A program made the translations under genes and the position numbers. Shown here in pieces: positions 803 through 25,611 of a stretch of DNA of 40,414 bases. Source of the DNA: a bacterium (GTDB taxonomy: Bacteria; SAR324; XYD2-FULL-50-16); NCBI GenBank assembly GCA_032250835.1, contig JAVVEA010000025.1, positions 1-40,414 on the forward strand, written 5' to 3'. Positions within the stretch are counted from its first letter, which is position 1, and every line of letters starts with the position of its first letter. Under the pieces are notes generated by a model that saw only the letters and a program-made list of their open reading frames with translations, had not been told where the DNA came from and ran no database searches.

Positions 803-1260
803 TTAATTACCCTAATAGGTAACAACCCGCTGCAAAACACCAAGACCCGCTTAATGCTGGGTCTGCAAGGGGAGGCCGGACCCTGGACCGGGTGCCGTCT
901 ACCCTCTGGTGAACGACGGGGCGGGCAGGTTGGTGTTACAGATAAAGTTCGCTACCCTTACAAAACGCGGCATCAACCAGACCTCTTAAGTTAAAGAACA
1001 GGTCACCAAAAAGGCTATCTTGGCCTGGTACTCCTGGCTAAATCTTTACCTCTTCAAGCCGCTCCATTTCCTGGTTCGACTCCAGTCAAACCAACTGTCC
1101 AGATTATCCCGCCCCAAGATCAAAGTCCGCACCCAAAAATCAGGTAGGCCTGAAAGGACCCCTGATCAAGAAAAGAGGGGCAATCCGGTGGATCAATATT
1201 GTAAGATACCCAATAATTTTGTTATCATGGAGGCGAGGAAAAGGTTTTTTAGGAGCCCTT

Positions 1261-3897
1261 ATGGACACTCAATATGTATACCGATTTTCCCCGGCCCAAA
1301 CCGATGGGAACAAAGACTTAAAGGCACTCTTGGGCGGCAAGGGGGCCAATCTAGCCGAGATGAGCCGCATTGGCCTGCCCGTGCCGCCTGGGTTTACCAT
1401 CAGCACCGAGGCTTGCGCGCGATACCAAAATTCGGGCACCGAAGGGATGGCGGCGATTGAGCCGCAAGTGCGCGAGGCGGTAGCCTTTGTGGAGCAACAG
1501 CGCAAGCAACGATTCGGCGACCCCCAAAACCCACTGCTCTTTTCGGTCCGCTCAGGTGCGGCGATTAGCATGCCGGGCATGATGGACACGGTGTTGAATC
1601 TGGGCCTCAATGAACCGACGGTGGCGGCGCTCCAAAGGAGCACGGGAAATCCCCGCTTTGTTTACGACCTTTACCGGCGTTTTATTGATATGTTTGGCGA
1701 TGTGGTGATGGGCGTCAAACACGAGCTCTTTGAGGCGGCGCTAGTCCAGCTTAAGCTGGAAGAAGGAGCCGCCCAAGATACGGACCTCAGCGCGGATGCA
1801 CTCCAACATCTTTCGACCCAATACCTAGAAATCTATCAAGCGCACACGGGCGAGCCCTTTCCCGCGGACCCCTGGGACCAGCTATTTAGGGCGATTGAAG
1901 CGGTGTTCCGCTCCTGGGGCAACGAGCGGGCGATTAAGTACCGCCGGATCAACCAGATCACCGGTCTTCTGGGAACTGCCGTGAACGTACAGTCCATGGT
2001 GTACGGCAACCGGGGGCCGAACAGCGCGACTGGCGTCTTGTTCACCCGCAACCCAGCCAACGGAGAAAACAAGCTCTTTGGTGAATACTTGGTCAACGCC
2101 CAGGGGGAAGACGTGGTCGCCGGTATCCGTACCCCTAGCCCCATTGAAGACCTACGACAGATCCAACCGGAATGTTATGGACAGATTGAGGCCCAGACGG
2201 ACCAGTTGGAACGCCATTTCAAGTGCATCCAAGACATTGAGTTCACCATCGAGGAAGGGGAACTGTTCATCTTGCAGACCCGCACCGGAAAACGTACCGG
2301 CCCCGCAGCGATGCGGATTGCCTGCGCGATGGTGGACGAAGGGCTGGTCTCGCCCAAGGAGGCCGTGGCCCATTTGGTCGAGCCGGAGCATTTAAACCAA
2401 ATGCTGCACCCCACCTTTGCCGACGAGGCCGCTTACCAGCCTCAGGTCTTGGCCTTGGGGCTGCCCGCGTCGCCCGGTGCGGCGGTAGGACGGATCGTCT
2501 TTGAAGCCGATGAAGCGGAACTCTGGGCCGAGCGGGGCGAAGCGGTAGTCTTGGTGCGCCAAGAAACCAGCCCTGACGATGTGGGCGGCATGCACGTTGC
2601 CCAAGGCATCGTCACCGCCCGAGGGGGGATGACCAGCCATGCAGCGGTGGTGGCGCGCGGTTGGGGTAAATGCTGCGTCGCCGGTTGCGGTGCCCTGAAA
2701 ATCCACGCGGACGCAAAGCGGGTGGAGGTTAAGGGCAGGACCTTTACCGAAGGCGACTGGATCAGCCTCAACGGAACCACCGGAGAAGTGATCGAAGGCC
2801 GCCACCCCTTAAAAATCCCCGAAATCAGCGGTGACTTTGCCCGGTTCATGGGTTGGGTGGACCAGTACCGGCGCTTGAAGGTACGCGCCAACGCCGAGAC
2901 GCCCACTGAGGCGCAGAAGGCGCTGGAGTTTGGCGCTCAGGGGATTGGCCTCTGCCGTACTGAGCATATGTTTTTTCAGGAAGAGCGCTTGCTTCCCTTC
3001 CGCGAGATGATTTTGGCGGAGTCCCTTGAAGACCGTAAAATGGCGCTTGAAAAAGTGCTGCCCTACCAACGCGAGGATTTTGAGGCGCTATTTCGGATCA
3101 TGACGGGCCAGCCGGTCACCATCCGCCTGCTGGACCCCCCGTTGCATGAATTTTTGCCCAAGGTCCTAGAGGACCAAGAACGGCTGGCTCAGGACCTGGG
3201 CATTCCGGTGGAACGCGTCCAAGCCGAGGTGGAGGCCCTTTCGGAAAACAACCCCATGTTGGGGTTCCGGGGCTGCCGCTTGGGCAACATCTATCCTGAA
3301 ATCACCCAGATGCAGGTTCGGGCCATCTTCGAAGCGGCTTTACAGGTCCAGTCCGAGGGCCTTAGGCCCGAACCGGAGGTGATGGTGCCCTTGGTGGGGG
3401 ACCGGTCTGAATTAGACGCCCAGCGCGGCGTGATCCAAGAGACCATTGAAGCGGTTTTCAAGGAACGGGGCCAGCGCATTGACTACCGCATCGGCAGCAT
3501 GATCGAAGTCCCCCGCGCTGCAATCCTGGCTGGCGAGATCGCCGAACAAGCCGACTTTTTTTCCTTCGGCACCAACGACCTCACCCAGATGACCTTCGGG
3601 TTCAGCCGCGACGATGCGGGCACCTTTTTACCCCAATATGTGGAGCGCAAGTTGTTGCTGAGCAGCCCCTTTGACGTACTTGACCAACGCGGTGTGGGGC
3701 AATTGATGCAGATGGCCATTGAGCGGGGGCGGGCAACCAAGCCGCAATTACAGATAGGCATCTGCGGAGAGCATGGCGGTGAACCCAATTCCGTGGCCTT
3801 CTGCCACCGGGTGGGTTTGGACTATGTTTCCTGTTCGCCCTACCGCGTGCCCATCGCTAAGTTGGCCGCCGCCCAGGCCGCCTTAAAGGAGCCCTGA
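1261..3897 (+). CDS. ppdK: Pyruvate, phosphate dikinase
   Basis: Motifs LLGGKGANLAEM, PLLFSVRSGA..SMPGMMDTVLNLG, RGGMTSHAAVVARG (catalytic His and regulatory Thr), GIGLCRTEHMF, FSFGTNDLTQ, GICGEHGG. AGGAG RBS at 1251-1255 favours ATG 1261 over the ORF-track start 1219. Confidence 0.97.
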   Translation: MDTQYVYRFSPAQTDGNKDLKALLGGKGANLAEMSRIGLPVPPGFTISTEACARYQNSGTEGMAAIEPQVREAVAFVEQQRKQRFGDPQNPLLFSVRSGAAISMPGMMDTVLNLGLNEPTVAALQRSTGNPRFVYDLYRRFIDMFGDVVMGVKHELFEAALVQLKLEEGAAQDTDLSADALQHLSTQYLEIYQAHTGEPFPADPWDQLFRAIEAVFRSWGNERAIKYRRINQITGLLGTAVNVQSMVYGNRGPNSATGVLFTRNPANGENKLFGEYLVNAQGEDVVAGIRTPSPIEDLRQIQPECYGQIEAQTDQLERHFKCIQDIEFTIEEGELFILQTRTGKRTGPAAMRIACAMVDEGLVSPKEAVAHLVEPEHLNQMLHPTFADEAAYQPQVLALGLPASPGAAVGRIVFEADEAELWAERGEAVVLVRQETSPDDVGGMHVAQGIVTARGGMTSHAAVVARGWGKCCVAGCGALKIHADAKRVEVKGRTFTEGDWISLNGTTGEVIEGRHPLKIPEISGDFARFMGWVDQYRRLKVRANAETPTEAQKALEFGAQGIGLCRTEHMFFQEERLLPFREMILAESLEDRKMALEKVLPYQREDFEALFRIMTGQPVTIRLLDPPLHEFLPKVLEDQERLAQDLGIPVERVQAEVEALSENNPMLGFRGCRLGNIYPEITQMQVRAIFEAALQVQSEGLRPEPEVMVPLVGDRSELDAQRGVIQETIEAVFKERGQRIDYRIGSMIEVPRAAILAGEIAEQADFFSFGTNDLTQMTFGFSRDDAGTFLPQYVERKLLLSSPFDVLDQRGVGQLMQMAIERGRATKPQLQIGICGEHGGEPNSVAFCHRVGLDYVSCSPYRVPIAKLAAAQAALKEP

Positions 3898-3899
3898 AC

Positions 3900-5300
3900 A
3901 TGAACGGTCACCTCCGCAACCTACCCTTTGAGGCACAGCAAGCCTTCACCCAGCTTGGCGAGGTGGTGGACCTGGATGCGGCGGACTTTGAGCTGGTCCA
4001 GGTGATCCCGGCCGACGTCACCGGGGGAGCCAGTGGAAATCCCCGAGTCCACAGCCTGTTGGTTTTCCGGCGGCAGGAACAACTCTATTTTGCCAAACCC
4101 GAGGTGGCGATGCGCAGCCTGCGCGACCCTGGAGCGCACGACTACCGTAGTTTTGCGAAGTTTGCGCTTTCCCTCTTTGATTGCGGCGACGGGGACACCA
4201 CCCCGATCTGGGAACACAATAGCCCCGAAGAGCCCGAGGCCCCGCCGCTGATCATCACCCAGGCCCAAGTCCTCAAGAACCAAGCCCTTCTTGAGGCGAT
4301 GGAATCGCCTAACGGAGCCGCCAGCGAGCCTTGGCTGAATGTCCTCTATAAATATTACCAAGCCAAAAAATCGGCTCTGATCAACTTAGGTGGTGAAACC
4401 TTCGAACCCTTCTTTAGCCATCAAGGACGTGATCTAGTCGGCGAGGTGTTGGTTTCGGCGGTGGGCCGAATTTTGGGCGTACCCGTTCCGCTGAACCATT
4501 TGGCGGTCCGGCGGGAGGAAGAACAATGGGGCCAAGGTCCAGGATGCTGGTGCCAGTGGCAGAGCCGCTACCTTTTGAGTGAAGCACTGGGGAATCGGCG
4601 AGATGTGCCCAACTTGGCGGACCTGTTGAAGGAGGCTTATTTGCAGCGGCTCCACCAATCGGAATATGTAGAAGACCTAAAGACGGCGTGGCACGAGGCC
4701 AATCCCTTAGGTCTGCCCTTTTTTTTAGGACAGTTCCACGAGATGGGACGCCAGAGGGCCGAGTTGTGTTTGGGCCTGCTGAAGCGCCCAGAAGACCTGA
4801 TCGCTTCAGACCTGCTAGACCGGATGCTGGGCGGCGTGGCGGATCGAAAGTTACAAGAATACCTGCTCCCGCAAGGGGCTGAAGGCCCGGTTTATACCTT
4901 AGATTTTGGCGAATCCTTCTTCGACGAATTGGCGCTGGAGCCCACCGACCCCCACTACATCAGAAGACGCAATCAGTGGTTTAAGCGGTTGGGCGGAGAT
5001 TTTGAGGCCTTAAGCCATTTAGACGGCGGGGGCCGGATCAAACAAGTCTGGTCCCAAATGTTAGCCAAACTGGTTAGCCTCCCCGGTGGGTATTTTGTAC
5101 GCTTGGTGCACCAAGTACCGCCGCTCTTTGCGCGGTCCGGCCGCTCCGATGGGGCCGATAGCTGCCACCTAGAAACCTTGGGCGATTATTTGGAGTCCCT
5201 ACGGAGTCTCTGCCGTCAGTATTTCCGGCTTACTGGACCGCTGGATCAAATCGGGGCCCAACGGAGGATGCTGGACTACTTCAGCCAAGGGGGGCTATGA
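3900..5300 (+). CDS. Uncharacterised protein with divergent HipA/PI3-4-kinase-like motifs
   Basis: 466 aa ORF starting 2 nt after the ppdK stop, with an ATGA overlap with the next gene. Motifs YFAKPE, GEVLVSAVGRILGVPVP, LDRMLGGVADRKLQEYLL and TLDFGESF occur in HipA-like kinase order. Confidence 0.6.
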   Translation: MNGHLRNLPFEAQQAFTQLGEVVDLDAADFELVQVIPADVTGGASGNPRVHSLLVFRRQEQLYFAKPEVAMRSLRDPGAHDYRSFAKFALSLFDCGDGDTTPIWEHNSPEEPEAPPLIITQAQVLKNQALLEAMESPNGAASEPWLNVLYKYYQAKKSALINLGGETFEPFFSHQGRDLVGEVLVSAVGRILGVPVPLNHLAVRREEEQWGQGPGCWCQWQSRYLLSEALGNRRDVPNLADLLKEAYLQRLHQSEYVEDLKTAWHEANPLGLPFFLGQFHEMGRQRAELCLGLLKRPEDLIASDLLDRMLGGVADRKLQEYLLPQGAEGPVYTLDFGESFFDELALEPTDPHYIRRRNQWFKRLGGDFEALSHLDGGGRIKQVWSQMLAKLVSLPGGYFVRLVHQVPPLFARSGRSDGADSCHLETLGDYLESLRSLCRQYFRLTGPLDQIGAQRRMLDYFSQGGL

Positions 5301-7237
5301 ACCCCTACCTCATCCCCACAAAGGCACGTCTAATCATTTTAGACGCCCATGACACCATCTTAAAACGAGACCTAAGCCGCAACACGGACCGGCCCTTTTT
5401 GGACCCCAAGGAAAAGGAAAAGCTCAGTTGGTTTCTGCGCGAAGGCTTCATCAACTTTCTAGATTATTTCAGCAGCGTCCAGGGTTTGATGGTGGTTATC
5501 AGCAGCGATGGCGGCAAACAATATCTGCTGGACACCTGCCGTCGCTTCGGCATTTTACACCAACTCCAGGCGGTTTACGGCTCCAACCACATGGACCCTT
5601 CGACAGGCCTCAAGCAGGTTGGACAAATCTTAGAAGACCTTGCAGTAGCTCCCGAAGAAGCGGTGTTCATTGGCGACAGTCGGATCGACCGCCTCAGCGC
5701 AGAAAAGGCGGGGGTTCCCTATGTGGAGGTGCCCGATACCTTGGATGACCGTAGTTTCACCTTCAATCGGTTCCTTCCGGTGCAATTCGGCAGCGGCAAC
5801 CTGGGGCTTGAGCTACAAAAGATCGAGAACCCTGGCCGCCTTTATCATAACCTTTCGACGCCTCATCTCGTCGAATTGGTCTTAGAGCGCGGCGAAGGCC
5901 AACTAGCCCACCTAGGACCTTTGGTGATCAACAATGGCGATGACGGGCCGACGGGAGCCCCCCAATACATTCTACGCGAGCCCTCTAGCGAGGAATTTGT
6001 GGATTGGGAGTCGGGGTTGTTCCATGAGTTTGAGATGGAGCGCTTTGAGATGTTGTACCTGCGCCTGCTGGCCTTTTTGCAGGACCGTCCCTTGTTCGTG
6101 CAAGACTGCTTTGCCGGGGCGGACCAACGGCGGCGGGTGCCCCTGCGCTTGATCACCCAAACGGCTTGGCACAACCTCTTTGCCCGGCACCTGTTTGTGC
6201 AGGCCAACGCGGAGGAAATGGCCGAATTTTTCCCCGAGTTTACCTTGATCCACGTACCTTATTTTAAGGCAATTCCGGCCATCGACGGGACCCAAGGACC
6301 GGCTTTTGTGTTGGTCAACCTGCTCAAGAAACTGGTGCTGATCGGTGGATGCCATGACCCAGGGCAAATCCAAAACGCGGTCTTCAGCCTGCTCTCCTTC
6401 TTGCTGGCGAAAGAGGACGTGGTGCCGATCCGGTGTTCGTCCTTTTTAAACCAATCCGAGCGCCCCACGCTGGTCTTCGGGCCCCCTTCGCTGGCTCGGA
6501 CCGCTTTCGCCGCCGCACCGGGCCACCGTTTTTTTGGCGATGACTGTCATGGCTGGGGGGCACAGGGGGTTTACAACATCGAGTGGGGGTGCCACTTGCC
6601 GCTGAACCATTTGACCCAACCCCGTTACCGACACCTCTTTGAGTCCACCCAAAAATTTGCGGTCCTGTTGCAGGGGGTGTCGGTGGACGAAAACCGGCGT
6701 CCCGATTACGCCCAAGCCCGCCCCAACGCCCGGGCTTCGCTCCCGATCACCCACCTGGGCACGGTAGAGCGCAGCGGTGTGGCCGAACGACCGGGGTTGA
6801 TTGTGGTCCTGGCCCCAGGGGGCGGGGCCCTCCCGGCGCTGATGGAACTCAGCCCCGAATTGGCCGTGTTGCTGCTCTTAGCGGGCTATCAGCAGGGCCC
6901 CTCGGGCCCAGATTACCGCCCTTTTTATGCCGGGCACCCCTTGTTATCCAATCCCTTGGATCATGCCTTGTTGCTTTGGGAAAAGATACGCAGCGCGCAG
7001 GCCCATTGCCTTTGGGTGGATTCCCCATCGGGGATTGAAGCGGGTCTTGCTTGGAATCAAGAGCCGGGCCTCAGCCAACTAGACCCTATTTGGGGCTGTC
7101 CCGCGCAAGGCCAATGTGAGGCGGCGCGGGCCAGGGACCTACAGGCACATTTGTTGGGGCTTTTAGGTGATCACCGCCTCAAGCTGGACCGTCAGTTTGT
7201 CGCAGAACTGCCCAGTTGGGCGCAGGTCTCTACTTAA
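5297..7237 (+). CDS. Fusion of an N-terminal HAD-like phosphatase and a degenerate ATP-dependent PEP carboxykinase-like domain
   Basis: HAD motifs IILDAHDT, VVISSD, FIGDSRID..AEKAGV. The PckA-like scaffold (YHNLS, LFVQDCFAGAD, AWHNLFARHLF, FFGDDCHGW, NIEWGC) lacks the P-loop and the metal/substrate ligands. Confidence 0.8.
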   Translation: MNPYLIPTKARLIILDAHDTILKRDLSRNTDRPFLDPKEKEKLSWFLREGFINFLDYFSSVQGLMVVISSDGGKQYLLDTCRRFGILHQLQAVYGSNHMDPSTGLKQVGQILEDLAVAPEEAVFIGDSRIDRLSAEKAGVPYVEVPDTLDDRSFTFNRFLPVQFGSGNLGLELQKIENPGRLYHNLSTPHLVELVLERGEGQLAHLGPLVINNGDDGPTGAPQYILREPSSEEFVDWESGLFHEFEMERFEMLYLRLLAFLQDRPLFVQDCFAGADQRRRVPLRLITQTAWHNLFARHLFVQANAEEMAEFFPEFTLIHVPYFKAIPAIDGTQGPAFVLVNLLKKLVLIGGCHDPGQIQNAVFSLLSFLLAKEDVVPIRCSSFLNQSERPTLVFGPPSLARTAFAAAPGHRFFGDDCHGWGAQGVYNIEWGCHLPLNHLTQPRYRHLFESTQKFAVLLQGVSVDENRRPDYAQARPNARASLPITHLGTVERSGVAERPGLIVVLAPGGGALPALMELSPELAVLLLLAGYQQGPSGPDYRPFYAGHPLLSNPLDHALLLWEKIRSAQAHCLWVDSPSGIEAGLAWNQEPGLSQLDPIWGCPAQGQCEAARARDLQAHLLGLLGDHRLKLDRQFVAELPSWAQVST

Positions 7238-16089: not shown

Positions 16090-16664
16090 ACGAAGGGTTG
16101 GCGGCCATCTTCTTGGGAAGCTTTTTGGTCAATAACTTTGTGCTCGCGTACTTCTTGGGTATCTGCCCTTTCTTGGGCGTTTCGGGCCGAATGGATACGG
16201 CGGTGCGCATGGGGCTAGCCGTCAGTTTGGTGATGTTGGTCGCCTCTATGTCGGCCTATGGGATCAACCAACTGCTGCAAGCCTTGGATTTGGAAGTTTT
16301 ACGGCTGATTTCTTTTGTTTTGGTGATCGCCACAGCGGTGCAACTAGTGGAACTGTTCGTAAAGAAAACCAGCCGCCCCCTGTTCGACGCGTTGGGCATC
16401 TTCTTGCCGCTGATCACCACCAACTGCGCGATCTTGGGCGTGGCGCTGTTCCAAACCAGCCGGGATTATGATTTTTTGCAGTCTCTGGCCTTTGCCGCCG
16501 GGGCGGGGGCGGGGTTTACCTTGGCTCTGTTGTTGATGGCGGGTTTGCGTGAAGAGCTTAAGTGGTCCAACCCGCCGGACCTAACCCAAGGCACGGCCTT
16601 AACCTTGATGGTCGGGGGGATCCTTTCCATGGCCTTTATGGGTTTTGCTGGGCTGGGAGGTTGA
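16086..16664 (+). CDS. rnfA: Rnf subunit A
   Basis: NNFVLAYFLGICPFLGVS, LGIFLPLITTNCAILG, SMAFMGFAG. ATGA overlap with rnfE. Confidence 0.95.
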   Translation: MNEGLAAIFLGSFLVNNFVLAYFLGICPFLGVSGRMDTAVRMGLAVSLVMLVASMSAYGINQLLQALDLEVLRLISFVLVIATAVQLVELFVKKTSRPLFDALGIFLPLITTNCAILGVALFQTSRDYDFLQSLAFAAGAGAGFTLALLLMAGLREELKWSNPPDLTQGTALTLMVGGILSMAFMGFAGLGG

Positions 16665-16665
16665 G

Positions 16666-18477
16666 ATGAGCAAGTCGCCACCAATCAGGGAACATATCTT
16701 GGAAATCCTCTCCGATGCGGGCGAGGGGGCCCAAAAGGCGGGGGGCATCTTTGCCAAAGCTTCGGCGAAGATGGGCAATTATCTTTGGACCGTAGAGATC
16801 ATACCGGCGGAAATCCAACCGCCAGCCCACACCACCCGAGGTTCTTCGGGCATCCGCATCCGCTTCGGGGCCGATCCCGTCACCAACGCCGGAGACCAAG
16901 CCAACCTGATCTTCGCCTTCAACGAAATGAGTTTGCTGGCGCGCCTGGAGGCGGATTCGCTGGCTCCTGAGGTGGTCTTGTTGATCGACGACTTTTGGGC
17001 CCAGCAAGAAGAGACCCAAGCCAACTACCGGCAGGTGGTGGCACGGGTAGTTGCTGGTGGGGGCCGCGTCATACCCGTTCCTTTGACCCAACTGCTACAA
17101 GACGCCGACGCCGAGCAAGGCAAAAACACCTTGGCCCTGGGGGTCTTGTCTTACCTCTACCACCGAGACCTAAGCTTGGTGGAAGAAGCACTCCGCCAGA
17201 GTTTTGCGCACAAAGAGACCGCCGTCATCGACGCCAACTGCGCGTTGCTGCACCGCGGTTACGACTGGGCTGGTGGTGCCGTCGATTTTCGGGTTAAGAT
17301 CCCCGCCAAGCCCTCCAAGCACCCAATGTTAGCTATGAATGGCAACCAGGCCTTAGGGATCGGTGCCATTGCGGCGGGCTTTGAGCTCTGTTCCATGTAC
17401 CCCATCACCCCGGCTTCTTCGGCCTCCGTCTTCTTGGCCAAGGAGTTTGAGGCCTTCGGCGGGGTGGTGCATCAGGCAGAAGACGAAATCGCCGCAATCG
17501 GCGTGGCGCTAGGCTCCAATTATGCTGGCAAACCCGCGTTGACCATCACCTCCGGTCCAGGATTGGCGCTCAAGACCGAGTTTATGGGGTTGGCGGTGAT
17601 GACCGAAACCCCCTTGGTTTTGGTGGATGTCCAGCGCGGCGGCCCCTCGACTGGCCTGCCGACCAAGATCGAGCAGTCCGACTTGCTGGCAGCGCTTTAT
17701 TCAACGCCCGGCGATGCGCCTAAGGTGGTGTTGGCCCCCACCAGCATTGAAGATTGTTTTGAGGTGATGATCACGGCGCGCCGCCTGGCCGAAGACTTAC
17801 GCACTTTGGTGGTGGTCCTCTCGGACGCCAACTTGGCCACTGGGGTCCAGACCTTCAAACGCCCCCCGGCGGACCGACCGGATTACTTCCGGCCCCTAGA
17901 GATCGAACCCGTTGGCACGGAGGCGGTTCCCTACCAGTGGGACCCCGAGACTGGCATAGCTCCCAGGCTGATTCCGGGGCACCACCGAATTCCCGCGATG
18001 ACCTCCTCCCTAAACCATGACCCCAAAGGGCTGGTGTCTTATGATGGAGCCAGCAACCAACGGAGCCACCAGATGCGCCGCTTAAAGCTCAATCGGCTGC
18101 GCGAAAGCCTCAAGACCCCACCGCTCCTTGGGGCAAGCCAGGGGGACCTGCTGGTGGTCGGCTGGGGGAGTACCTTGGGGGCTATTGAAGAGGCGGCGGC
18201 CCAGGCGCAGAAAGAAGGGCTCGCTGTGTCGGCCTGCCACTTACGCTTTCTTAACCCCTTGCCGCCGGGCTTAAAGGGGCTATTCGGCGGATTTAGGCAG
18301 GTGGTCACCGTCGAGTTGAACTACGGGGAGCCCAAAGAACCGGGGCAACTGGCCCGGTTGTTGCGGGCTGAGACGCTGGTGGACGTGCAGTCCTTCGCTA
18401 AGGTCTGGGGCAGGCCCTTGATGCCTTGCGAGCTCTTGGCCGAAATGAGGCGCTTGATCCAAGCACAGGAGGCCTAA
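16666..18477 (+). CDS. korA: 2-oxoacid:ferredoxin oxidoreductase alpha subunit (gamma-alpha fusion, KorA-like)
   Basis: MYPITPAS, QAEDEIAA, TSGPG, VQRGGPSTGLPTK. GGGAGG RBS at 16655-16660 favours ATG 16666. Substrate specificity cannot be determined from sequence. Confidence 0.85.
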   Translation: MSKSPPIREHILEILSDAGEGAQKAGGIFAKASAKMGNYLWTVEIIPAEIQPPAHTTRGSSGIRIRFGADPVTNAGDQANLIFAFNEMSLLARLEADSLAPEVVLLIDDFWAQQEETQANYRQVVARVVAGGGRVIPVPLTQLLQDADAEQGKNTLALGVLSYLYHRDLSLVEEALRQSFAHKETAVIDANCALLHRGYDWAGGAVDFRVKIPAKPSKHPMLAMNGNQALGIGAIAAGFELCSMYPITPASSASVFLAKEFEAFGGVVHQAEDEIAAIGVALGSNYAGKPALTITSGPGLALKTEFMGLAVMTETPLVLVDVQRGGPSTGLPTKIEQSDLLAALYSTPGDAPKVVLAPTSIEDCFEVMITARRLAEDLRTLVVVLSDANLATGVQTFKRPPADRPDYFRPLEIEPVGTEAVPYQWDPETGIAPRLIPGHHRIPAMTSSLNHDPKGLVSYDGASNQRSHQMRRLKLNRLRESLKTPPLLGASQGDLLVVGWGSTLGAIEEAAAQAQKEGLAVSACHLRFLNPLPPGLKGLFGGFRQVVTVELNYGEPKEPGQLARLLRAETLVDVQSFAKVWGRPLMPCELLAEMRRLIQAQEA

Positions 18478-19421
18478 TGGATTTTATGCATCTTGATGAA
18501 TTTATTGAGTCCCACTGTGCAAGGCCGCAGGCGGTCGACTTTGAGGGGGAAGCGGCCCGTTGGTGCCCCGGTTGCGGAGATTTCGCCATTTTGTCGGCCT
18601 TGGAACGCTTGTTGGCGAAAGAAGCGGTGGACCCTTCGGAAGTGGTGTGTCTTTCGGGCATAGGCTGTTCTGGCCGGTTCCCCTATTACCTGAAAACCTT
18701 CGGTTTCCACGGCATCCACGGCCGGGCCATACCGATCAGCACGGGTGTGGCGCTGGCCAACGAAAAACTTAAGGTGATCACCGTGATGGGGGATGGGGAT
18801 TGCTTCAGCATCGGATTGAACCATTGGCTGCATGGGTTGCGCTACAATGTCGATTTGCTGGCGCTGGTCTTCGATAACCAGATCTACGGCCTCACCAAAC
18901 AACAGGCTTCCCCGACCACGCCGCAGGGCACCTGGACGACCACCACGCCCGGCGGCGCATGGCTGCCCGCTATCGACCCACTAGCCCTAGCGCTCAATAT
19001 GTCCAACCGCAGTTTTGTGGCCCAAACCGCCACTTGGTTGCCAGGGCATTTGCAGCAGACCCTGGAATCAGGTTGGGCACACCGGGGCCTGAGCTTCATC
19101 CGCATCTTGCAGCGTTGCCCAAAATTTTCGCCCCAAGCCTATGGCGAGGCCCAGGAGCTAAGGGAACGCTTTGTTTTCCTGCAACCGGCAGAGGGGTCCC
19201 AGGCGAGTGCAGAAGAGTCCTTGGCCGATCGGCTGGAACATGACCCGTCGGACTTAAAGGCCGCCCGGCGGTTGTTGCAAGAAGAGCCCCGAATGCCCCT
19301 CGGGCTGTTGTACCGCAATCCGGCGGTGCCCAGCTATCAAGCCCTGCGCCTGCGAGCCCGGCCCAGCCGGGCAGAGAAGTTATTGGCCTTGGAAAACCTG
19401 TTGGACCGATTCTCCCTATAG
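18477..19421 (+). CDS. korB: 2-oxoacid:ferredoxin oxidoreductase beta subunit (TPP-binding, KorB-like)
   Basis: WCPGCGD, SGIGCSGR, HGIHGRA, GDGD...DNQIYGLTK.QASPT. TAATG overlap with the alpha gene. Confidence 0.85.
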   Translation: MDFMHLDEFIESHCARPQAVDFEGEAARWCPGCGDFAILSALERLLAKEAVDPSEVVCLSGIGCSGRFPYYLKTFGFHGIHGRAIPISTGVALANEKLKVITVMGDGDCFSIGLNHWLHGLRYNVDLLALVFDNQIYGLTKQQASPTTPQGTWTTTTPGGAWLPAIDPLALALNMSNRSFVAQTATWLPGHLQQTLESGWAHRGLSFIRILQRCPKFSPQAYGEAQELRERFVFLQPAEGSQASAEESLADRLEHDPSDLKAARRLLQEEPRMPLGLLYRNPAVPSYQALRLRARPSRAEKLLALENLLDRFSL

Positions 19422-19428
19422 AGCCGCC

Positions 19429-21057
19429 ATGATCGACCGGATCTTACAACCTGCGGTGGACCGCTTTGAGGCGGCCCGGAAAAATCGCCTGAACGAATGG
19501 ATCGAACGGGCCCGTCAGGTCTTTGCCCAATACCTAGGGGGCGCAACGCCGAGCGGCTACGGAGCCTTTGGGGCGGCGACCCTAGATCTGGACCGTTGGA
19601 CCCGGACCCTAAAGGGCCCCGGCGAGCCTTGGAACCTGAGCGAGGAATTGGCCCAGTTGGAGCAACAAATCCCCAGGCTGCCTGGCTCCCGCTGGGTTGA
19701 CATAAATTCAGAGGTTTCGTGGGTCCACCAGTTCAATGAGCAACTGGCTCCCTATGAAGATTTGGTGGGGCTGTTGCGGCAGGCCGAAGCGTTAAGCTAC
19801 GGTCGATGGGTTAGGCCCGAACGCCCCAGCTGGCAAGACTTCAGCCCTGCTGAATGGAGCCTTTGCCCCTTGGTATTGGTCGAAGGGAGCCAAGCCAGCG
19901 CGGGGTTGTTGCTCGACCTGTTGGCCTCAGGCTTGCCGCTCAAAATTTTGGTCCAGCGCTCCTTGCAGGCCTGTTTCCAGGCAAGGTCCGGGCGCGGCGC
20001 GGCCTTGCAGCCCGAGATCGACCTCGGTTGGATGGCCGCGGGTTTGCGCAGCGCCTACAGCCTCTGCGTCCCGGCGGGTTGGGCCGGGGAGCGGTTGGAA
20101 GCGGGCTTGGCCTCGGCGCGGGCGGCGCTCTTTTGCCTGATAGAAGTTCCTGAAGAATTTGAACAGCTTGCCGTGGACTCTAGAACCATACTCCCCCTTT
20201 GTTACGACCCGGACCGGGCCGAAAAGGGCGCAGGCCCGTTGGAGCTCATCGGTGTCTCCCTAAACTGCCCAGGGTGGTTGCCGGTCACCGAAGAGGGCTT
20301 AGACGACGAGGGAGAGGCTTGCACCCGCGAAGGGGCCTTAACCCCAGCGGATCTGTACGCTCGGTTGTCGGGCGCAGCGGCCCAATTCGACGGACCGCCC
20401 GCAGACCAGCCTGGGATTTCCCTGGCGGACTATCTAGCCGCCGATCACGAAAGGAGGCTGCACCACCTACCGACCCTAGCCATCCGCCGCGCCAACCTGC
20501 GTTGGACCCAGGAGGTGGTCCCCCCTTGGTTGGTTGGCTTCTGCCAAAGGCGGTTGGATTTGTGGCAACAGGCGTTACGCCAATTGGGTCCCCTAGAAGC
20601 TCCGTCTCAGGCAAAACCGCCGGTAGCCGCCCCTTCCGAAGTCCATCCTTCACCGGCAGAGGCGGTGCGCTCGGCGATGGCGCGGCTTGCCGCCAAGTTG
20701 ATGGGATTAGAGCCCAGCGGCCTTGAGGCGCTTTCTGGGGGCCTAGCGAACCCGACCACCGCCGTAGAACCGCCCAAGGAGCAACCACCTAAACCCCTGA
20801 CCTCATCCAGCGGGCTCCCTTGGATCGACTCGGCTAAATGTACCAGTTGCGACGAATGCACCCGGATCAATGCCAAGATATTTGCCTACAACGACCAGAA
20901 ACAAGCCTTTATCAAAGACCCCAAAGCGGGTCCCTTCCGGGATTTGGTCAAGGCGGCGGAAAAGTGTTCGGCTTCGATCATCCATCCCGGAAGCCCGCTA
21001 AACCCCCAAGAAAAGGACCTAGCTAAATGGGTCGCACGAGCGGCCAAGTACCCATAG
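19429..21057 (+). CDS. Degenerate PFOR C-terminal (beta-like) paralogue fused to a C-terminal ferredoxin
   Basis: Shows collinear similarity to the C-terminal third of the 8085-12560 protein but has no GDG TPP motif. A Pro/Ala-rich linker precedes CTSCDEC...KAAEKC. Confidence 0.75.
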   Translation: MIDRILQPAVDRFEAARKNRLNEWIERARQVFAQYLGGATPSGYGAFGAATLDLDRWTRTLKGPGEPWNLSEELAQLEQQIPRLPGSRWVDINSEVSWVHQFNEQLAPYEDLVGLLRQAEALSYGRWVRPERPSWQDFSPAEWSLCPLVLVEGSQASAGLLLDLLASGLPLKILVQRSLQACFQARSGRGAALQPEIDLGWMAAGLRSAYSLCVPAGWAGERLEAGLASARAALFCLIEVPEEFEQLAVDSRTILPLCYDPDRAEKGAGPLELIGVSLNCPGWLPVTEEGLDDEGEACTREGALTPADLYARLSGAAAQFDGPPADQPGISLADYLAADHERRLHHLPTLAIRRANLRWTQEVVPPWLVGFCQRRLDLWQQALRQLGPLEAPSQAKPPVAAPSEVHPSPAEAVRSAMARLAAKLMGLEPSGLEALSGGLANPTTAVEPPKEQPPKPLTSSSGLPWIDSAKCTSCDECTRINAKIFAYNDQKQAFIKDPKAGPFRDLVKAAEKCSASIIHPGSPLNPQEKDLAKWVARAAKYP

Positions 21058-21104
21058 GACCAAACCGGGGCTTGATTGGATTTCATTGGTTTTTTTTCTA
21101 ACTA

Positions 21105-21133
21105 TGTACACTTGAGGTCTGGGGCATTACAAT
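21105..21133 (+). promoter_or_regulatory. Candidate sigma70 promoter for the hydrogenase operon
   Basis: TGTACA-N17-TACAAT in the only sizeable AT-rich intergenic gap of the cluster. Confidence 0.35.
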
Positions 21134-21180
21134 AGGGTAAAACTATTCAAGGCCCTTTGATTGTTTTTGAGAGGTAGCCG

Positions 21181-22305
21181 TTGGACGCTTATTTGTTGGA
21201 TACTGATATGCTGGCCCAGTTGGTCGAGCGCCTCCGTTTGGAAGGGGAGGTGATCGGCCCGCAAATCGACCGAGGGGTGATCGCCTATGGTCCGCTCAAG
21301 TCCTTTGAGGACTTACCCCAGGGGTGGAGTGAGTTGCAGGGGCCGGGGCTGTACCGGCTCCAAAGAACCGGTCGGCCTTCGCGATTTGCCTACCGCGTGG
21401 CCCCTACCTCTTGGAAGCCTTTTTTATATCCGCCCAAGGAGCTATTGTTTAGGGCCCGCAAGGAAGGAGATTCCTTCACCGTCCAACCTGCCGAAACCTC
21501 CTTGGAAGCAAGGGTCTTGTTTGGTCTGCGTCCCTGTGAACTACGGGCCCTGCGGGTGCAAGAACGGGTCTTGTCCAAGGCGAATTACCCACCTTACCAG
21601 CAGCGTTTGCAGGCCAGTTGGATTGTCGCGGTGGCCTGTGTCGAACCGGGCGAAAACTGCTTTTGCGCGGACCTTGACAGCGGCCCCGAGGTGCGCGACG
21701 ACTGCGACCTTAAGCTAGTGGAATGGGGAGACGAACCCCGCTATCTGGCCCAAGCGGGGAGCGAGCGGGGCCGGGCGCTTCTGCGCGGATTGGCCCTACC
21801 CACCGCTAGCGCAGAAGACCAGAAGGAGGCCCAGGCAGCACTCGCAAGGGCCCGCCGCCAGATGGGCCGTAGTTTGGACCGCCGCCAAACCCCGGACCTC
21901 TTGACCCGGAAACACGCCCACCCGGCCTTTGATGCCCTGGCGGAACGCTGCACCGCCTGTGGGAATTGTACTCTGGTTTGTCCGACCTGCTTTTGCTCCA
22001 ACCTAGAGGACCATACCTCGCTCGATGGGCGGGAGGCCTCCCGCTACCGGGTTTGGGATTCCTGTTTTACCCTTGATTTTAGTTACATCCATGGTGGCCA
22101 TGCGCGGAGCAAGCCTTCTGAGCGCTACCGACAATGGATGACCCACAAGCTTTCCAGTTGGCAGTCACAATTTGACGAGGCCGGTTGCGTCGGTTGTGGG
22201 CGCTGCATCACTTGGTGCCCCGAGGGGATTGATCTAACCGAGGAGTTTAGGGCGCTGACCGAACGAGCCAAAGAGTCGACAATCCAATACCGCGAGTTGA
22301 CCTGA
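21181..22305 (+). CDS. Group 3b (sulfhydrogenase-type) hydrogenase Fe-S beta subunit (AsrA/HydB-like)
   Basis: LFGLRPCE, C....NCFC, CTACGNCTLVCPTCFC, WDSCF, GCVGCGRCITWCP. TTG start with GAGGT RBS at 21171-21175. Confidence 0.9.
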   Translation: MDAYLLDTDMLAQLVERLRLEGEVIGPQIDRGVIAYGPLKSFEDLPQGWSELQGPGLYRLQRTGRPSRFAYRVAPTSWKPFLYPPKELLFRARKEGDSFTVQPAETSLEARVLFGLRPCELRALRVQERVLSKANYPPYQQRLQASWIVAVACVEPGENCFCADLDSGPEVRDDCDLKLVEWGDEPRYLAQAGSERGRALLRGLALPTASAEDQKEAQAALARARRQMGRSLDRRQTPDLLTRKHAHPAFDALAERCTACGNCTLVCPTCFCSNLEDHTSLDGREASRYRVWDSCFTLDFSYIHGGHARSKPSERYRQWMTHKLSSWQSQFDEAGCVGCGRCITWCPEGIDLTEEFRALTERAKESTIQYRELT

Positions 22306-22763
22306 TGGGAACGAAACAAGAAATGTTGGGGCACCCCTTCATGGTTGGGTTGGCCCCGGAGCATCAAGCGGCCATGGTTGAATGCGCGCGCGAGGCGTTC
22401 ATCCAGAAAGGTACCTGGCTGTTACGCAACGGCGACTTGGCGGACCAATTTTTTTTAGTTCAAGAAGGGGTCCTTTCCATTGAGTTGTACGTCCCCAATC
22501 GGGCGGAACACTCCATCCAAACGGTGCATCCAGGGGAATTGCTCGGTTGGGATTGGATGGTGCCGCCTTACCGGTGGACCTTCGACGTGAGGGCGCAGGA
22601 AGACTGCCGCGCCTTCGCGGTAGACGCCCGCTGCATCCGAGGCAAGGGGCAGGTAGACCACGAATTTGGCTACCAACTACAAAACCGCATCAGCCAAGTG
22701 ATGGCCCGAAGGGTCAAGGCCCTAAGATTCCAACTGCTAGACGTGTATAGCCATGAACCCTGA
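22305..22763 (+). CDS. Stand-alone cyclic-nucleotide-binding (Crp-type) domain protein without an HTH
   Basis: LLRNGDLADQFFLVQEG...PGELLGW...FDVRA beta-barrel pattern in 152 aa. Overlaps both neighbouring genes. Confidence 0.8.
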   Translation: MGTKQEMLGHPFMVGLAPEHQAAMVECAREAFIQKGTWLLRNGDLADQFFLVQEGVLSIELYVPNRAEHSIQTVHPGELLGWDWMVPPYRWTFDVRAQEDCRAFAVDARCIRGKGQVDHEFGYQLQNRISQVMARRVKALRFQLLDVYSHEP

Positions 22764-23571
22764 ATCGGTCTTGACCCCCACTTTATGGAAGCTGCTTGAG
22801 GTACAGGAGGAAACAGGAGACTGTTTTAGCCTCCGGTTAGAGCCACCGGAGGGTTACCGGTTTGAGCCGGGACAGTTTAATATGCTCTACGCCTTCGGCA
22901 AGGGGGAGGCCCCCATCTCGATCAGCAGCGACCCTGACCGATCAGACCAACTGGTCCATAGCATCCGTGCCGTTGGCGTGGTGACCCAAGAACTGCAGCG
23001 GCTGCGGGCCGGTGAACAGGTCGGGGTGCGCGGCCCCTTCGGGCAACCTTGGCCCTTGGAAGAGGCCGAGGGTAAAGAGGTCTTGATCATCGCCGGGGGC
23101 ATCGGCCTGGCTCCGTTGCGCCCTCTGATCTACCGGATTTTGGCGCAGCGCCAACGATTCAAGCAGGTCTATTTGCTGTATGGGGCCCGCACCCCGAAGG
23201 ATTTGCTCTACCCGGATCAGTTGGAACTTTGGCAAGAAGGGATCGAGGTCCGCACTACCGTAGACCGTTCTATGGCCGGTTGGACCGGGCAGGTGGGCGT
23301 GGTGCCCAGGTTGATCACCGCCGAGGGATTCGACCCGGCCAACACCCTGGCCTTTGTCTGTGGTCCTGAAGTGATGATGAATTTTTGCGTGGAGGAACTG
23401 CAAAACCGAGGCGTCGCTGGGTCCAGTATTTTTGTCTCCTTGGAACGCAACATGAAATGCGCCCAAGGCTATTGTGGCCATTGCCAAATGGGGCCCTATT
23501 TTATTTGCCGGGACGGACCGGTCTTCCGCTACGAACGCATCCAACCCTTTCTCAACATACGAGGTGGATGA
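22753..23571 (+). CDS. Group 3b hydrogenase FAD/NAD(P)-binding gamma subunit (AsrB/HydG-like)
   Basis: PGQFNML, GEAPISISS, RGPFG, IAGGIGLAPLR, CGPEVMM, ERNMKCAQGYCGHC...ICRDGPVF. Confidence 0.92.
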   Translation: MNPESVLTPTLWKLLEVQEETGDCFSLRLEPPEGYRFEPGQFNMLYAFGKGEAPISISSDPDRSDQLVHSIRAVGVVTQELQRLRAGEQVGVRGPFGQPWPLEEAEGKEVLIIAGGIGLAPLRPLIYRILAQRQRFKQVYLLYGARTPKDLLYPDQLELWQEGIEVRTTVDRSMAGWTGQVGVVPRLITAEGFDPANTLAFVCGPEVMMNFCVEELQNRGVAGSSIFVSLERNMKCAQGYCGHCQMGPYFICRDGPVFRYERIQPFLNIRGG

Positions 23572-24344
23572 TGGCGATCAAACTAAAGCTGGCGGTGTGG
23601 AAGCTTTCGTCCTGCGATGGCTGCCAATTAAGCCTATTGGATTTGGAGGACCATTTGTTGGACTTGGCCGAGGCGGTGGACATTGCTTGGTTCCCCGAAG
23701 CCTCCAGCGCAATGTTGCCCGGCCCTTACGATGTCTCCCTAGTCGAAGGCTCGATCACCAGCCATAGCCAGTTGCGCGAAATAAAAAAAATCCGGCAAGA
23801 GTCCAAGCTTTTGGTCACCATCGGAGCCTGCGCCACTGCGGGCGGAATCCAGGCCCTGCGGAACTTTGGCGACCTGTCCCAGTGGCAGGCGAAGGTCTAT
23901 GCCCACCCCGAATACCTAGATTCGCTGGACCGTTCCACCCCGGTAAGTAACCATGTGCCGGTGGATTACGAATTGCGCGGTTGCCCGGTGGATAAGTACC
24001 AACTGTTGGAATTGCTGAACGCCACGCTCTTTGGTCGGAGGCCCAACATCTATGACCGTTCGGTCTGTTTTGAATGTAAGCTTAAGGGGAATCCCTGCTT
24101 GATGGTGTTGCGGGATACTTGGTGTTTGGGGCCCGTGACTCATGGAGGGTGCGACGCACTCTGCCCCACCTACGATCGAGGCTGTTTTGGCTGTTTTGGT
24201 CCCAAAGAGCAGGCCAACGTCAAGTCCATGAGCCGGGTCATAGAAACCAAGGGGGCATCCCGCGAAGAACTCAAACGCCTTTACCGTAAATTCACCGCAG
24301 GCGACCCCACCTTGGCCCGAGAGAGTGAACGCTATGAAGACTAG
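23571..24344 (+). CDS. Group 3b [NiFe] hydrogenase small (delta) subunit
   Basis: SSCDGCQ, VEGSIT, IGACATAGGIQ, RGCP, VCFECK, CLGPVT.GGC.ALCP...RGCFGCFG. No Tat leader. Start is 23568 or 23571 after GAGGT. Confidence 0.92.
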   Translation: MAIKLKLAVWKLSSCDGCQLSLLDLEDHLLDLAEAVDIAWFPEASSAMLPGPYDVSLVEGSITSHSQLREIKKIRQESKLLVTIGACATAGGIQALRNFGDLSQWQAKVYAHPEYLDSLDRSTPVSNHVPVDYELRGCPVDKYQLLELLNATLFGRRPNIYDRSVCFECKLKGNPCLMVLRDTWCLGPVTHGGCDALCPTYDRGCFGCFGPKEQANVKSMSRVIETKGASREELKRLYRKFTAGDPTLARESERYED

Positions 24345-25611
24345 GCAGATTAAAGTCGACCTGCTGGCGCGGGTCGAGGGCGAAGGGAGGTTGGAGGTTT
24401 CGCTCAAAGACAACCGGATCACCGACTTGTCTTTGCACATCTTCGAAGAACCCCGCTACTTTGAGGCGCTCTTAGAAGGGCGCGAGTACCATGAGGTGCC
24501 CGACATGACCTCACGGATTTGCGGGATCTGCCCGGTTGCTTACCAGATGAGCTCAATCCATGCGTTAGAGCGGATCTTTGGGCTCGACCCCGGCCCGGAG
24601 GTCCGCGCGCTGAGGCGGTTGATCTACTGTGGGGAATGGATCGAAAGTCATGGATTACACATCTACCTCCTGCACGCCCCCGATTTCTTGGGTTACCCCA
24701 GCGGCATCCACCTTAGCCAGGCGGCCCCGGAAGTCGTCAAGGCGGGCTTGCAATTAAAGAAAATCGGCAACCAAATCGTCCAGGTGGTGGGTGGAAGAGA
24801 AATCCACATGATCAACCTAAAGGTAGGTGGATTTTATCGAGCGCCCAGCCGCGCGGAGATCAAGGCCCTGCAAGCCCCGCTGGAACAAGCCGTCACCTTG
24901 GCAAGGGAATGTTTGGCCTGGGTAGGGACCTTCGACATCCCCCCGCTGGAACGGGACTACCACTTTGTGGCCTTGCGGCACCCGTCGGAGTATCCGATGA
25001 ACGAAGGTACCTTGACCTCTTCTAAGGGGTTGTCCTGGGAGCCGGCGGCCTTTGAGGATCACTTCGTTGAATCCCATGTCGCCCGCTCCAACGCCCTACA
25101 CAGTAGCTACCATGGCGAGAGTTATCTGGTGGGTCCCTTGGCTCGGTACGCCCTGAACTATGACCGGCTTGGTGCTGAGATCCAAGACCTTGCCCGCCAA
25201 GTGGGCCTGAGGGAGGTCTGCCGCAACCCCTTCGAAAGCATCAAGATTCGGGCGGTGGAATTGCTCTTCGCCTGCGTAGAGGCGCTGCGGTTGGTTCAGG
25301 GCTATGAGCCGCCCCCACCGGTGGAGGTAAAAGTCAAGCCAGGTGCCGCCGCCGCGATCACCGAAGCGCCCCGGGGCCTGCTGTACCACCGGTACCAAGT
25401 CTCCGAGGCGGGTTTGGTGGAAAAAGCCAATATCGTGCCCCCAACCAGCCAAAACCTACGCAGCATCGAAGAGGACCTAAAGGCGCTGATCGAATCTAAC
25501 TTGGAATTGGACGACGAGCCTTTGCGCCTTTTATGTGAGCAGGCGATCCGCAATTACGACCCTTGCATTTCCTGCGCTACCCACTTCTTGGACTTAAAGG
25601 TACAGCGGTGA
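24334..25611 (+). CDS. Group 3b [NiFe] hydrogenase large (alpha) subunit
   Basis: ARVEGEG, L1 motif SRICGICPVAY, EAPRG, L2 motif RNYDPCISCATH followed by a short cleavable tail. Confidence 0.95.
   Translation: MKTRQIKVDLLARVEGEGRLEVSLKDNRITDLSLHIFEEPRYFEALLEGREYHEVPDMTSRICGICPVAYQMSSIHALERIFGLDPGPEVRALRRLIYCGEWIESHGLHIYLLHAPDFLGYPSGIHLSQAAPEVVKAGLQLKKIGNQIVQVVGGREIHMINLKVGGFYRAPSRAEIKALQAPLEQAVTLARECLAWVGTFDIPPLERDYHFVALRHPSEYPMNEGTLTSSKGLSWEPAAFEDHFVESHVARSNALHSSYHGESYLVGPLARYALNYDRLGAEIQDLARQVGLREVCRNPFESIKIRAVELLFACVEALRLVQGYEPPPPVEVKVKPGAAAAITEAPRGLLYHRYQVSEAGLVEKANIVPPTSQNLRSIEEDLKALIESNLELDDEPLRLLCEQAIRNYDPCISCATHFLDLKVQR

What the first reader, a model, noticed from the sequence alone, without database searches (positions are those of the whole stretch)
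3900..5300. Orphan ORF hides a divergent HipA/PI3-4-kinase fold without an antitoxin
Seen, in order: YFAKPE (ATP-binding Lys), GEVLVSAVGRILGVPVP (alphaC Glu + LG.PVP), DRMLGGVADRKLQEYLL (catalytic loop) and TLDFGESF (DFG). Established: the HipA/PI3-4K consensus loop is D...GN.DRH..N. Here DRH..N becomes DRK..E, and an insert of roughly 110 aa separates the Lys from the Glu. No HipB-like HTH gene is adjacent and the context is metabolic. Inference: a domesticated regulatory kinase or pseudokinase.
Basis: partly seen in the sequence, partly recalled or inferred. Interest (0 to 1): 0.72.

Follow-up and report, generated by a model that had tools for sequence, protein, structure and literature searches.

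The report
Kinase–phosphatase pair beside pyruvate enzymes
This gene encodes a previously unlabelled kind of protein kinase that travels with a phosphatase fused to a dead copy of a metabolic enzyme, and the pair probably works as an on/off switch for central carbon metabolism.

Summary
The 466-aa ORF (3900-5300) and its four motifs are real. It is not an orphan: 18 homologues were found. An alignment-based AlphaFold model (pLDDT 86.7) matches CtkA (Z 17.5), CotH, PI4KII and HipA (Z about 12). Lys66, Asp315 and Asp335 are invariant in 37 of 37 rows, and Glu-for-Asn has a precedent in active Fam20 kinases (DRHHYE), so a pseudokinase is unlikely.

The overlapping downstream gene (5297-7237) fuses a short-cap HAD domain (motif DAHDT, His in place of the acid/base Asp) to a PEP carboxykinase that has lost its catalytic residues. 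The genes are adjacent in 20 of 20 informative metagenome loci and 9 of 9 genome loci, in either order. They mark the same genomes in two lineage surveys (5 of 156; 4 of 94). The pair often sits beside ppdK, pckA or a PFOR-like/Rnf cluster.

Best reading (0.55): a two-gene protein kinase/phosphatase switch on a PEP-pyruvate-node enzyme, with the pseudo-PEPCK as sensor or docking module. Activity, substrate and binding are untested. Nine of my ten paper searches sought the module or its kinase family; none described it.

The parts
3900..5300 (+). HipA/CtkA/PI4K-fold atypical kinase, 466 aa. K66 (4095), E182 (4443), D315-R-K-x-x-E320 (4842-4859), D335-F-G-E (4902-4913).
4098..4430 (+). Family-specific folded insert between the beta3 Lys and alphaC (about residues 67-177), with invariant F88, F93, Y153, K157, R177. 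A substrate- or partner-docking role is inferred.
   Evidence: (block pLDDT 64-96)
5297..5800 (+). N-terminal HAD domain of the partner gene: D16-A-H18-D-T20, SSDG, K106, GDxxxD. Short C0-like cap. His replaces the second Asp of motif I.
   Evidence: (DAHDT, SSDG, K106, GD and the final D invariant in 48 of 48)
5801..7237 (+). C-terminal pseudo-PEP carboxykinase domain of the partner gene (646 aa in all). GLSGTGKT becomes GPPSLART; the R65, K212/K213, H232 and K288 equivalents are lost (E. coli numbering recalled).
   Evidence: far below the NCBIfam PckA cut-offs
1219..3897 (+). ppdK, pyruvate phosphate dikinase; ends 2 nt before the kinase ATG; candidate target.
   Evidence: also upstream of the kinase in L033
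7248..16664 (+). rnfB, a giant PFOR-like 2-oxoacid:ferredoxin oxidoreductase (8085-12560) and rnfC-D-G-E-A, starting 10 nt after the fusion; candidate target cluster.
   Evidence: (RnfC over cut-off; PFOR-like below the TIGR02176 cut-off); rnfD/G/E/A names are from sequence and gene order, not from a family scan
16645..26057 (+). Rest of the same-strand cluster: 2-oxoacid:ferredoxin oxidoreductase alpha/beta, a 542-aa ORF, and sulfhydrogenase-like NiFe hydrogenase subunits with a maturation protease (context).

Best explanation
A two-gene reversible protein-phosphorylation switch at the PEP/pyruvate node. (1) Shown by structure prediction and conservation: the ORF has a HipA/CtkA-type kinase fold with a full catalytic set. 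(2) Shown: it is co-inherited with, and often overlaps, a gene fusing a short-cap HAD domain to a catalytically dead PEP carboxykinase. (3) Inferred: the kinase phosphorylates a Ser/Thr on a central-carbon enzyme. The HAD domain removes the phosphate through an Asp16 phospho-intermediate, with His18 as acid/base. The dead PEPCK fold, derived from an enzyme that binds oxaloacetate/PEP and ATP, senses a metabolite or docks the target and so gates the phosphatase. (4) Inferred target, within this reading: the giant PFOR-like enzyme or its Rnf cluster about 40%, canonical PckA about 25%, PPDK about 20%, other about 15%.
For: Fold: CtkA Z 17.5 (rmsd 3.2, 245 aligned), CotH 12.2, PI4KII 12.1, HipA 12.0, actin-fragmin kinase 12.0. 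K66, D315, R316, D335 and G337 in 37 of 37; E182 in 35 of 37; K317 in 34 of 37. Partner: adjacent in 20 of 22 kinase loci, the other 2 ending at a contig edge, and in 9 of 9 loci found with the HAD domain alone. Both queries hit the same 5 of 156 and the same 4 of 94 genomes. Both gene orders occur, with ATGA overlaps in each. Tree distances correlate: r 0.44, 3 of 5000 permutations, 16 pairs. HAD motif I to II spacing is 53 aa in 46 of 46, leaving no room for a large C1 cap; C0 HADs typically act on macromolecules (PMC8069645 passages). A separate intact PckA is present in 9 of 10 carriers, and as a contig-edge fragment in the tenth. Neighbours: ppdK (window, L033), pckA (gammaproteobacterial clade), Rnf/PFOR-like cluster (window, G091, G095; G090 about 12 kb away). 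The PFOR-like gene is in 5 of 5 carriers versus 5 of 151 non-carriers in the order of G091.
Against: No activity, substrate or expression data. The superfamily also holds lipid and sugar kinases (PI4K, MavQ, Fam20B), so the fold does not fix the substrate class. Most HAD structural matches are small-molecule phosphatases. The HAD lacks the second Asp that the literature calls the general acid/base. No metabolic neighbour was recognised in L054, L074 or L052. PFOR enrichment is weak in the gammaproteobacterial family: 3 of 4 versus 37 of 90. PckA is common anyway: 118 of 156. No carrier-specific Ser/Thr was found in the PFOR-like or PckA alignments. 18 of the 22 metagenome loci, 16 of the 37 kinase rows and about 27 of the 48 fusion rows are one clade, so the counts are not independent.
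Confidence: 0.55

Rival explanations
1. A small-molecule kinase/phosphatase pair. The kinase phosphorylates a metabolite, lipid or signal, the HAD reverses it or acts at another step, and the altered PEPCK pocket acts as a substrate-binding cap or a new enzyme.
For: PI4KII and MavQ are among the top fold matches. The HAD's nearest structures are phosphoglycolate-phosphatase-like. The PEPCK pocket keeps basic and acidic residues: Arg at the K212 position in 46 of 48, Arg at H232 in 38 of 48, D268 in 44 of 48.
Against: The HAD has no large cap. The best fold match is a protein kinase (CtkA Z 17.5, about 5 above the rest). No transporter or pathway genes are conserved with the pair.
Confidence: 0.2
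2. A toxin-antidote or stress/defence module: a HipA-like toxic kinase neutralised enzymatically by the HAD, with the pseudo-PEPCK as trigger sensor.
For: HipA and HipT are fold relatives. The two genes occur strictly together and are very patchy: 1 of 88 genomes in the window's phylum, 5 of 156, 4 of 94. YjjJ is a HipA-like toxin that affects carbon storage (PMC9948734 abstract).
Against: No PADLOC hit for 5 proteins. No hit in viral contigs or plasmids. No HTH gene nearby. The pair is embedded in a central-metabolism operon with GC3 like its neighbours and the genome: 0.66 and 0.68 versus a median of 0.68.
Confidence: 0.12
3. The HAD is not a hydrolase but a phospho-Asp/His switch or phosphotransferase. 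Lacking the acid/base Asp, it holds or relays phosphate and is itself the kinase's client or input.
For: His18 is invariant in 48 of 48, in place of the second Asp. HADs without that Asp, such as P-type ATPases, keep longer-lived phospho-Asp (recalled).
Against: Motifs II, III and IV are intact, and His can act as acid/base (inference). HipA-fold kinases are not known to feed Asp relays (recalled).
Confidence: 0.08
4. A pseudokinase: an ATP-binding scaffold without phosphotransfer.
For: There is no conserved Gly-rich loop before K66, and Asn becomes Glu/Asp in the catalytic loop.
Against: All catalytic positions are conserved at about 31% median pairwise identity. Fam20 has Glu at that position and is active. 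A dedicated phosphatase-like partner implies a phospho-product.
Confidence: 0.05

Closest known systems
CtkA of Helicobacter pylori (PDB 3akj/3akk)
   Same: Best fold match, Z 17.5-17.9, rmsd 3.2-3.4 over 245-259 residues.
   Different: 12% identity. The ORF has a family-specific insert between Lys and alphaC and a DRKxxE/D loop, and it has a phosphatase/pseudo-PEPCK partner in a metabolic operon. CtkA is a host-directed effector.
HipA/HipT/YjjJ kinases (hipBA, hipBST and the families of Gerdes 2021, PMC8262856)
   Same: Core fold, Z 10-12.5; alphaC 'E...LGVPVP' segment; two-gene organisation.
   Different: No HipA_C Pfam hit in 19 of 19 members; no HipB/HipS/HIRAN partner. 'Phosphatase' and 'carboxykinase' occur 0 times in that paper's main text and in its 6 held supplements.
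Fam20C/Fam20B and CotH
   Same: Same superfamily, Z 8.8-12.2. Acidic residue at +5 of the catalytic loop (DRHHYE) and 20-21 residues between the two Asps.
   Different: Those are secreted or spore-coat enzymes. Here +2 is Lys, not His, and no hydrophobic stretch suggests a membrane protein (maximum 19-residue hydropathy 1.64 in 20 rows).
Metabolic-enzyme kinase/phosphatases: PDRP/PpsR (PF03618), AceK, HPrK/P, mitochondrial PDK/PDP (functions recalled)
   Same: Proposed logic: reversible phosphorylation of a central-carbon enzyme, tuned by metabolites.
   Different: Different folds. The bacterial ones are single bifunctional proteins, while here the kinase and phosphatase are separate. PF03618 was found in 1 of 11 carrier genomes.
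ATP-dependent PEP carboxykinase (PckA), the name databases give the partner
   Same: PEPCK_ATP Pfam hit, E 7e-71; closest solved structure 1j3b, E 4e-73.
   Different: Catalytic residues are lost, scores are less than half the NCBIfam cut-offs, there is an N-terminal HAD, and an intact PckA exists separately in the genome (C22). The 'phosphoenolpyruvate carboxykinase (ATP)' label on these records is probably a misannotation.

Membership tests
HipA/CtkA/PI3-4K atypical kinase superfamily | Bilobal atypical kinase fold | tested here: met
   Model pLDDT 86.7, pTM 0.86. The top 20 VIA-align rows are all CtkA/CotH/PI4K/HipA/AFK/Fam20/PIKK/PI3K-type kinases, Z 8.2-17.5.
HipA/CtkA/PI3-4K atypical kinase superfamily | beta3 Lys, alphaC Glu, catalytic Asp and Mg-binding Asp conserved | tested here: met
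   K66 37 of 37, E182 35 of 37, D315 37 of 37, D335 37 of 37. Roles were assigned from motif and secondary structure; residue-level superposition was not available.
HipA/CtkA/PI3-4K atypical kinase superfamily | ATP-dependent phosphotransfer | not testable with these tools
   Needs an assay.
HipA toxins (hipBA/hipBST) | HipA_C / Couple_hipA profile match | tested here: not met
   0 of 19 members at E<=1. The Atlas structure rows carrying HipA_C were under the bar for naming a family.
HipA toxins (hipBA/hipBST) | Adjacent HTH/HipS antitoxin gene | tested here: not met
   Neighbours abut with a 2-nt gap and a 4-nt overlap. The conserved neighbour is the HAD/pseudo-PEPCK fusion.
HipA toxins (hipBA/hipBST) | Growth inhibition on expression | not testable with these tools
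   Needs an experiment.
HAD phosphatase (partner, N-terminal domain) | Nucleophile Asp, motif II Ser, motif III Lys, motif IV GDxxxD | tested here: met
   All invariant in 48 of 48. HAD_2 hit E 9e-7, over cut-off.
HAD phosphatase (partner, N-terminal domain) | Second Asp of DxD (general acid/base) | tested here: not met
   His in 48 of 48. A further member reads DAHGT (L073), which fixes the register.
C0 (capless) HAD acting on macromolecules | No large C1/C2 cap | tested here: inconclusive
   Spacing 53/55 aa in 45 of 46 rows and 53/53 in 1 leaves no room for a large cap. The domain was not folded by me, and the fused PEPCK domain could act as a cap.
PckA, PEP carboxykinase (ATP) (partner, C-terminal domain) | Substrate Arg65/Arg333, metal ligands K213/H232/D269, P-loop GxSGxGKT (numbering recalled) | tested here: not met
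   Window copy: R65>P, K212>Q, K213>N, H232>R, GLSGTGKT>GPPSLART, K288>P; D268, D269 and R333 kept. Family: H232 is R in 38 of 48, R333 is kept in 10 of 48, and the inner P-loop glycines are lost. The Walker Lys position is still K in 36 of 48 and K213 is K in 28 of 48.
PDRP/PpsR (PF03618) | PF03618 domain | tested here: not met
   No hit in either protein.
Known anti-phage systems (PADLOC 2.0) | Profile match | tested here: not met
   0 of 5 proteins at E<=0.1. The library dates from 2023.

The most novel reading that the evidence does not exclude
A bacterial analogue of the mitochondrial pyruvate dehydrogenase kinase/phosphatase switch, built from unrelated parts. A HipA-fold kinase turns off the giant PFOR-like/Rnf pyruvate-oxidising system (or PPDK/PckA). 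A His-type capless HAD phosphatase turns it back on when its fused dead PEP carboxykinase binds PEP, oxaloacetate or a nucleotide. The module moves sideways between phyla together with the anaerobic pyruvate/Rnf/hydrogenase cluster.
Probability: 0.25. Interest if true: 0.86.

Novelty: new variant of a known kind. Interest (0 to 1): 0.7.

Why it matters
Few dedicated kinase/phosphatase systems for central-carbon enzymes are known in bacteria (AceK, PDRP, HPrK/P; recalled), and HipA-fold kinases are known mostly as toxins or effectors. This module would add a housekeeping role for that fold, a pseudo-PEPCK used as a sensor, and a HAD with His in place of the acid/base Asp. It has only two soluble proteins, and its candidate targets are encoded next door, so it is directly testable in vitro. 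It also flags a set of records annotated as PEP carboxykinase that are probably not enzymes of that kind.

Tried and rejected
Single-sequence AlphaFold gave pLDDT 36 and was unusable; the 19-row alignment fixed this. Word-index protein searches missed the family: self only, and 3 hits with A1. Sequence searches of the PDB found nothing significant for the kinase. Foldseek gave no E<=0.001; its best was HipA at 1.3e-3.

Complex prediction of kinase 17-437 with fusion 6-583 returned no answer, score 0.00, controls not folded. No RNA run was listed. The promoter/terminator scan was near chance: 4 versus 1.9+-1.3 and 14 versus 10.3+-4.1. No hits in viral contigs or plasmids.

'Replaces PDRP': 0 of 4 carriers versus 54 of 90 non-carriers in one family. 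But 0 of 19 genomes in the window's own family have PDRP at all, carrier G089 has it, and the carriers are kin, so I did not use this as support.

A search for carrier-specific Ser/Thr in PFOR-like proteins (8 carriers, one partial, versus 18) and PckA (9 versus 25) found no clean site. G088's fragmented PFOR-like gene and G312 were left out. A kinase-profile scan of the genome contig collection could not be built from A1, so that collection was scanned from the HAD side. PFOR-like frequency in the window's own phylum was not measured. Four look-ups in earlier scan findings returned nothing.

Full report
Observation. The ORF at 3900-5300 encodes 466 aa and carries the four quoted motifs. It starts 2 nt after ppdK. 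Its stop overlaps the ATG of a 646-aa gene, which ends 10 nt before rnfB. It has no useful Pfam, NCBIfam, PADLOC or PHROGs match. GC3 is 0.66, against a genome median of 0.68 for long ORFs.

Family. phmmer over 1.84 billion representatives found 18 proteins, all at E<=1e-30 and none between that and 0.001, so this is a sharply bounded family. Median pairwise identity is 31%. In a 37-row alignment (16 rows from one gammaproteobacterial clade), K66, D315, R316, D335 and G337 are invariant, E182 is kept in 35, K317 in 34, and position 320 is E in 21 and D in 16. In the less redundant 19-row set the numbers are K66 18 of 18, E182 17 of 18, D315 and D335 19 of 19. The Lys-to-Glu distance is 114-126 in all 37 rows, and the insert holds invariant residues of its own.

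Fold. ESM Atlas pointed to PI3_PI4_kinase and LepB_N clusters by features, and to HipA_C clusters by structure (TM 0.52, under the naming bar). AlphaFold with the 19-row alignment gave pLDDT 86.7 and pTM 0.86. Against 48,161 PDB representatives the best match is CtkA (Z 17.5, rmsd 3.2, 245 aligned), then CotH 12.2, PI4KII 12.1, HipA 12.0, actin-fragmin kinase 12.0, MavQ 11.7 and Fam20C 11.2 (one search agrees). Foldseek alone was not significant. The Asn-to-Glu change is no sign of a dead kinase: Fam20 enzymes use DRHHYE, and FAM20B's two essential Asps are 20 apart (PMC12110425, passages), as D315 and D335 are in 37 of 37 rows. Lys at +2 resembles Ser/Thr kinases such as PKA (recalled).

The partner. 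A metagenome scan with the kinase profile gave 22 loci. In 20 the next gene is a homologue of window 5297-7237, and the other 2 end at the contig edge. Eighteen of the 22 are one clade and some are duplicates, so this amounts to about four lineages. The reverse test, scanning GTDB contigs with the HAD domain alone, gave 9 loci titled Gammaproteobacteria and Leptospiraceae/Leptospirales/Spirochaetales MAGs. All 9 have the kinase adjacent, downstream of the fusion in the 3 spirochaete loci.

In whole-genome surveys the two queries hit the same 5 of 156 genomes and the same 4 of 94, with the genes adjacent in each. The kinase is in 1 of 88 genomes of the window's own phylum. One pair has consecutive accessions, MBE7438777.1 and MBE7438778.1. 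Of the 18 homologues, 12 could be linked to a fusion by DNA or by equal contig length; 6 have no context. Tree distances correlate (r 0.44, 3 of 5000; pruned to 12 pairs r 0.40, 64 of 5000; five of the 16 pairs rest on contig length only). This shows co-inheritance, not contact.

Anatomy of the partner. The HAD motifs DAHDT, SSDG, K106 and GDxxxD are invariant in 48 of 48 sequences. The nucleophile Asp is kept, but the second Asp, the general acid/base (PMC8069645, passages), is His. Motif spacing leaves no room for a large cap, and the same review says C0 HADs typically act on macromolecules, with exceptions. The PEPCK domain has lost the substrate Arg, the His metal ligand and the P-loop glycines, although the Walker Lys position is still K in 36 of 48 (numbering recalled). 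The genome has an intact PckA on C22, as do 9 of 10 carriers tested.

Context. The pair lies next to ppdK (window, L033), before pckA (most gammaproteobacterial loci with room), or in or near an rnf/PFOR-like cluster (window, G091, G095; G090 about 12 kb away). G091 also shares the hydrogenase genes. No metabolic neighbour was recognised in L054, L074 or L052. The giant PFOR-like gene is in 5 of 5 carriers and 5 of 151 non-carriers in the order of G091, but in 3 of 4 versus 37 of 90 in the gammaproteobacterial family; kin are not independent. A canonical-level PPDK was seen in 7 of 10 carriers and only divergent copies in 3. PckA is too common to discriminate (118 of 156). No carrier-specific Ser/Thr emerged.

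Mechanism. Shown: a kinase fold with intact catalytic residues; a strictly linked HAD/pseudo-PEPCK; recurrent placement at the PEP/pyruvate node. Inferred: the kinase and HAD form an opposing pair on a protein substrate, with the dead PEPCK as metabolite sensor or docking domain (0.55). Rivals: a small-molecule pair (0.2), toxin-antidote or defence (0.12), a phospho-relay HAD (0.08), a pseudokinase (0.05). The substrate is open.

Known or new. It belongs to the HipA/CtkA/PI4K superfamily by fold and residues, but fails the HipA-toxin tests (no profile match, no antitoxin gene). It would work like AceK, PDRP or PDK/PDP (recalled) without belonging to any of them. Nine paper searches aimed at the module, its kinase family or a dead PEPCK listed nothing describing it; one search served only for HAD background. 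The HipA phylogeny paper PMC8262856 (passages, and a term search of 6 held supplements) never mentions a phosphatase or carboxykinase. PMC9948734 was seen as abstract and outline only. Most subscription journals are not in the library, so absence from print is not proven.

Verdict. A real, active-looking atypical kinase family and an apparently undescribed two-gene module; new variant of a known kind; interest 0.70.

Noticed in passing
window 19429-21057: The 542-aa ORF matches the C-terminal region of longer (1650-1720 aa) PFOR-like proteins elsewhere, at about 30%. It looks like a separate partial copy of that region with a ferredoxin end; no NCBIfam hit at 1e-10.
   Followed up: partly
window 21181-26057 and L075 5489-10608: Sulfhydrogenase-like NiFe hydrogenase genes, with an inserted small gene (cNMP-binding look, recalled), are in the same order after the Rnf/PFOR-like cluster in a Leptospirales genome, at 31-54% identity. 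This suggests a transferred anaerobic-metabolism island.
   Followed up: partly
L011 1453-3126, L015 997-2658 (G004, G012; also G015, G017, G018): One genus of the window's family has two or three divergent PEPCK-like genes, two of them about 4.5 kb apart. The copies read have altered motifs (for example GCESSGKTT, DRKPEIK) and no HAD domain: possibly other pseudo-PEPCKs.
   Followed up: no
L019, L021, L022: PckA in three relatives carries a C-terminal extension of about 230 aa of unknown family.
   Followed up: no
L073 6709-9252: A glycogen/starch phosphorylase gene ends about 20 nt from the kinase gene, on the opposite strand, in G095.
   Followed up: no
G088:C1:54708-56801 (L090): The PFOR-like gene is in several frames in this carrier genome: either a broken gene or an assembly error.
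   Followed up: no
G000 C14 and C6: The genome has a second Rnf cluster (C14) and a second giant PFOR-like gene (C6, 36% identity).
   Followed up: no
window 5-802: A 265-aa ORF at the contig start with no Pfam or PHROGs hit; its 'DGGWT' segment recalls fibrinogen-like domains (recalled, untested).
   Followed up: partly
window 38008-38523 (-): A short ORF that reads like an IS5-type transposase fragment (recalled), near the lower-GC contig end.
   Followed up: no
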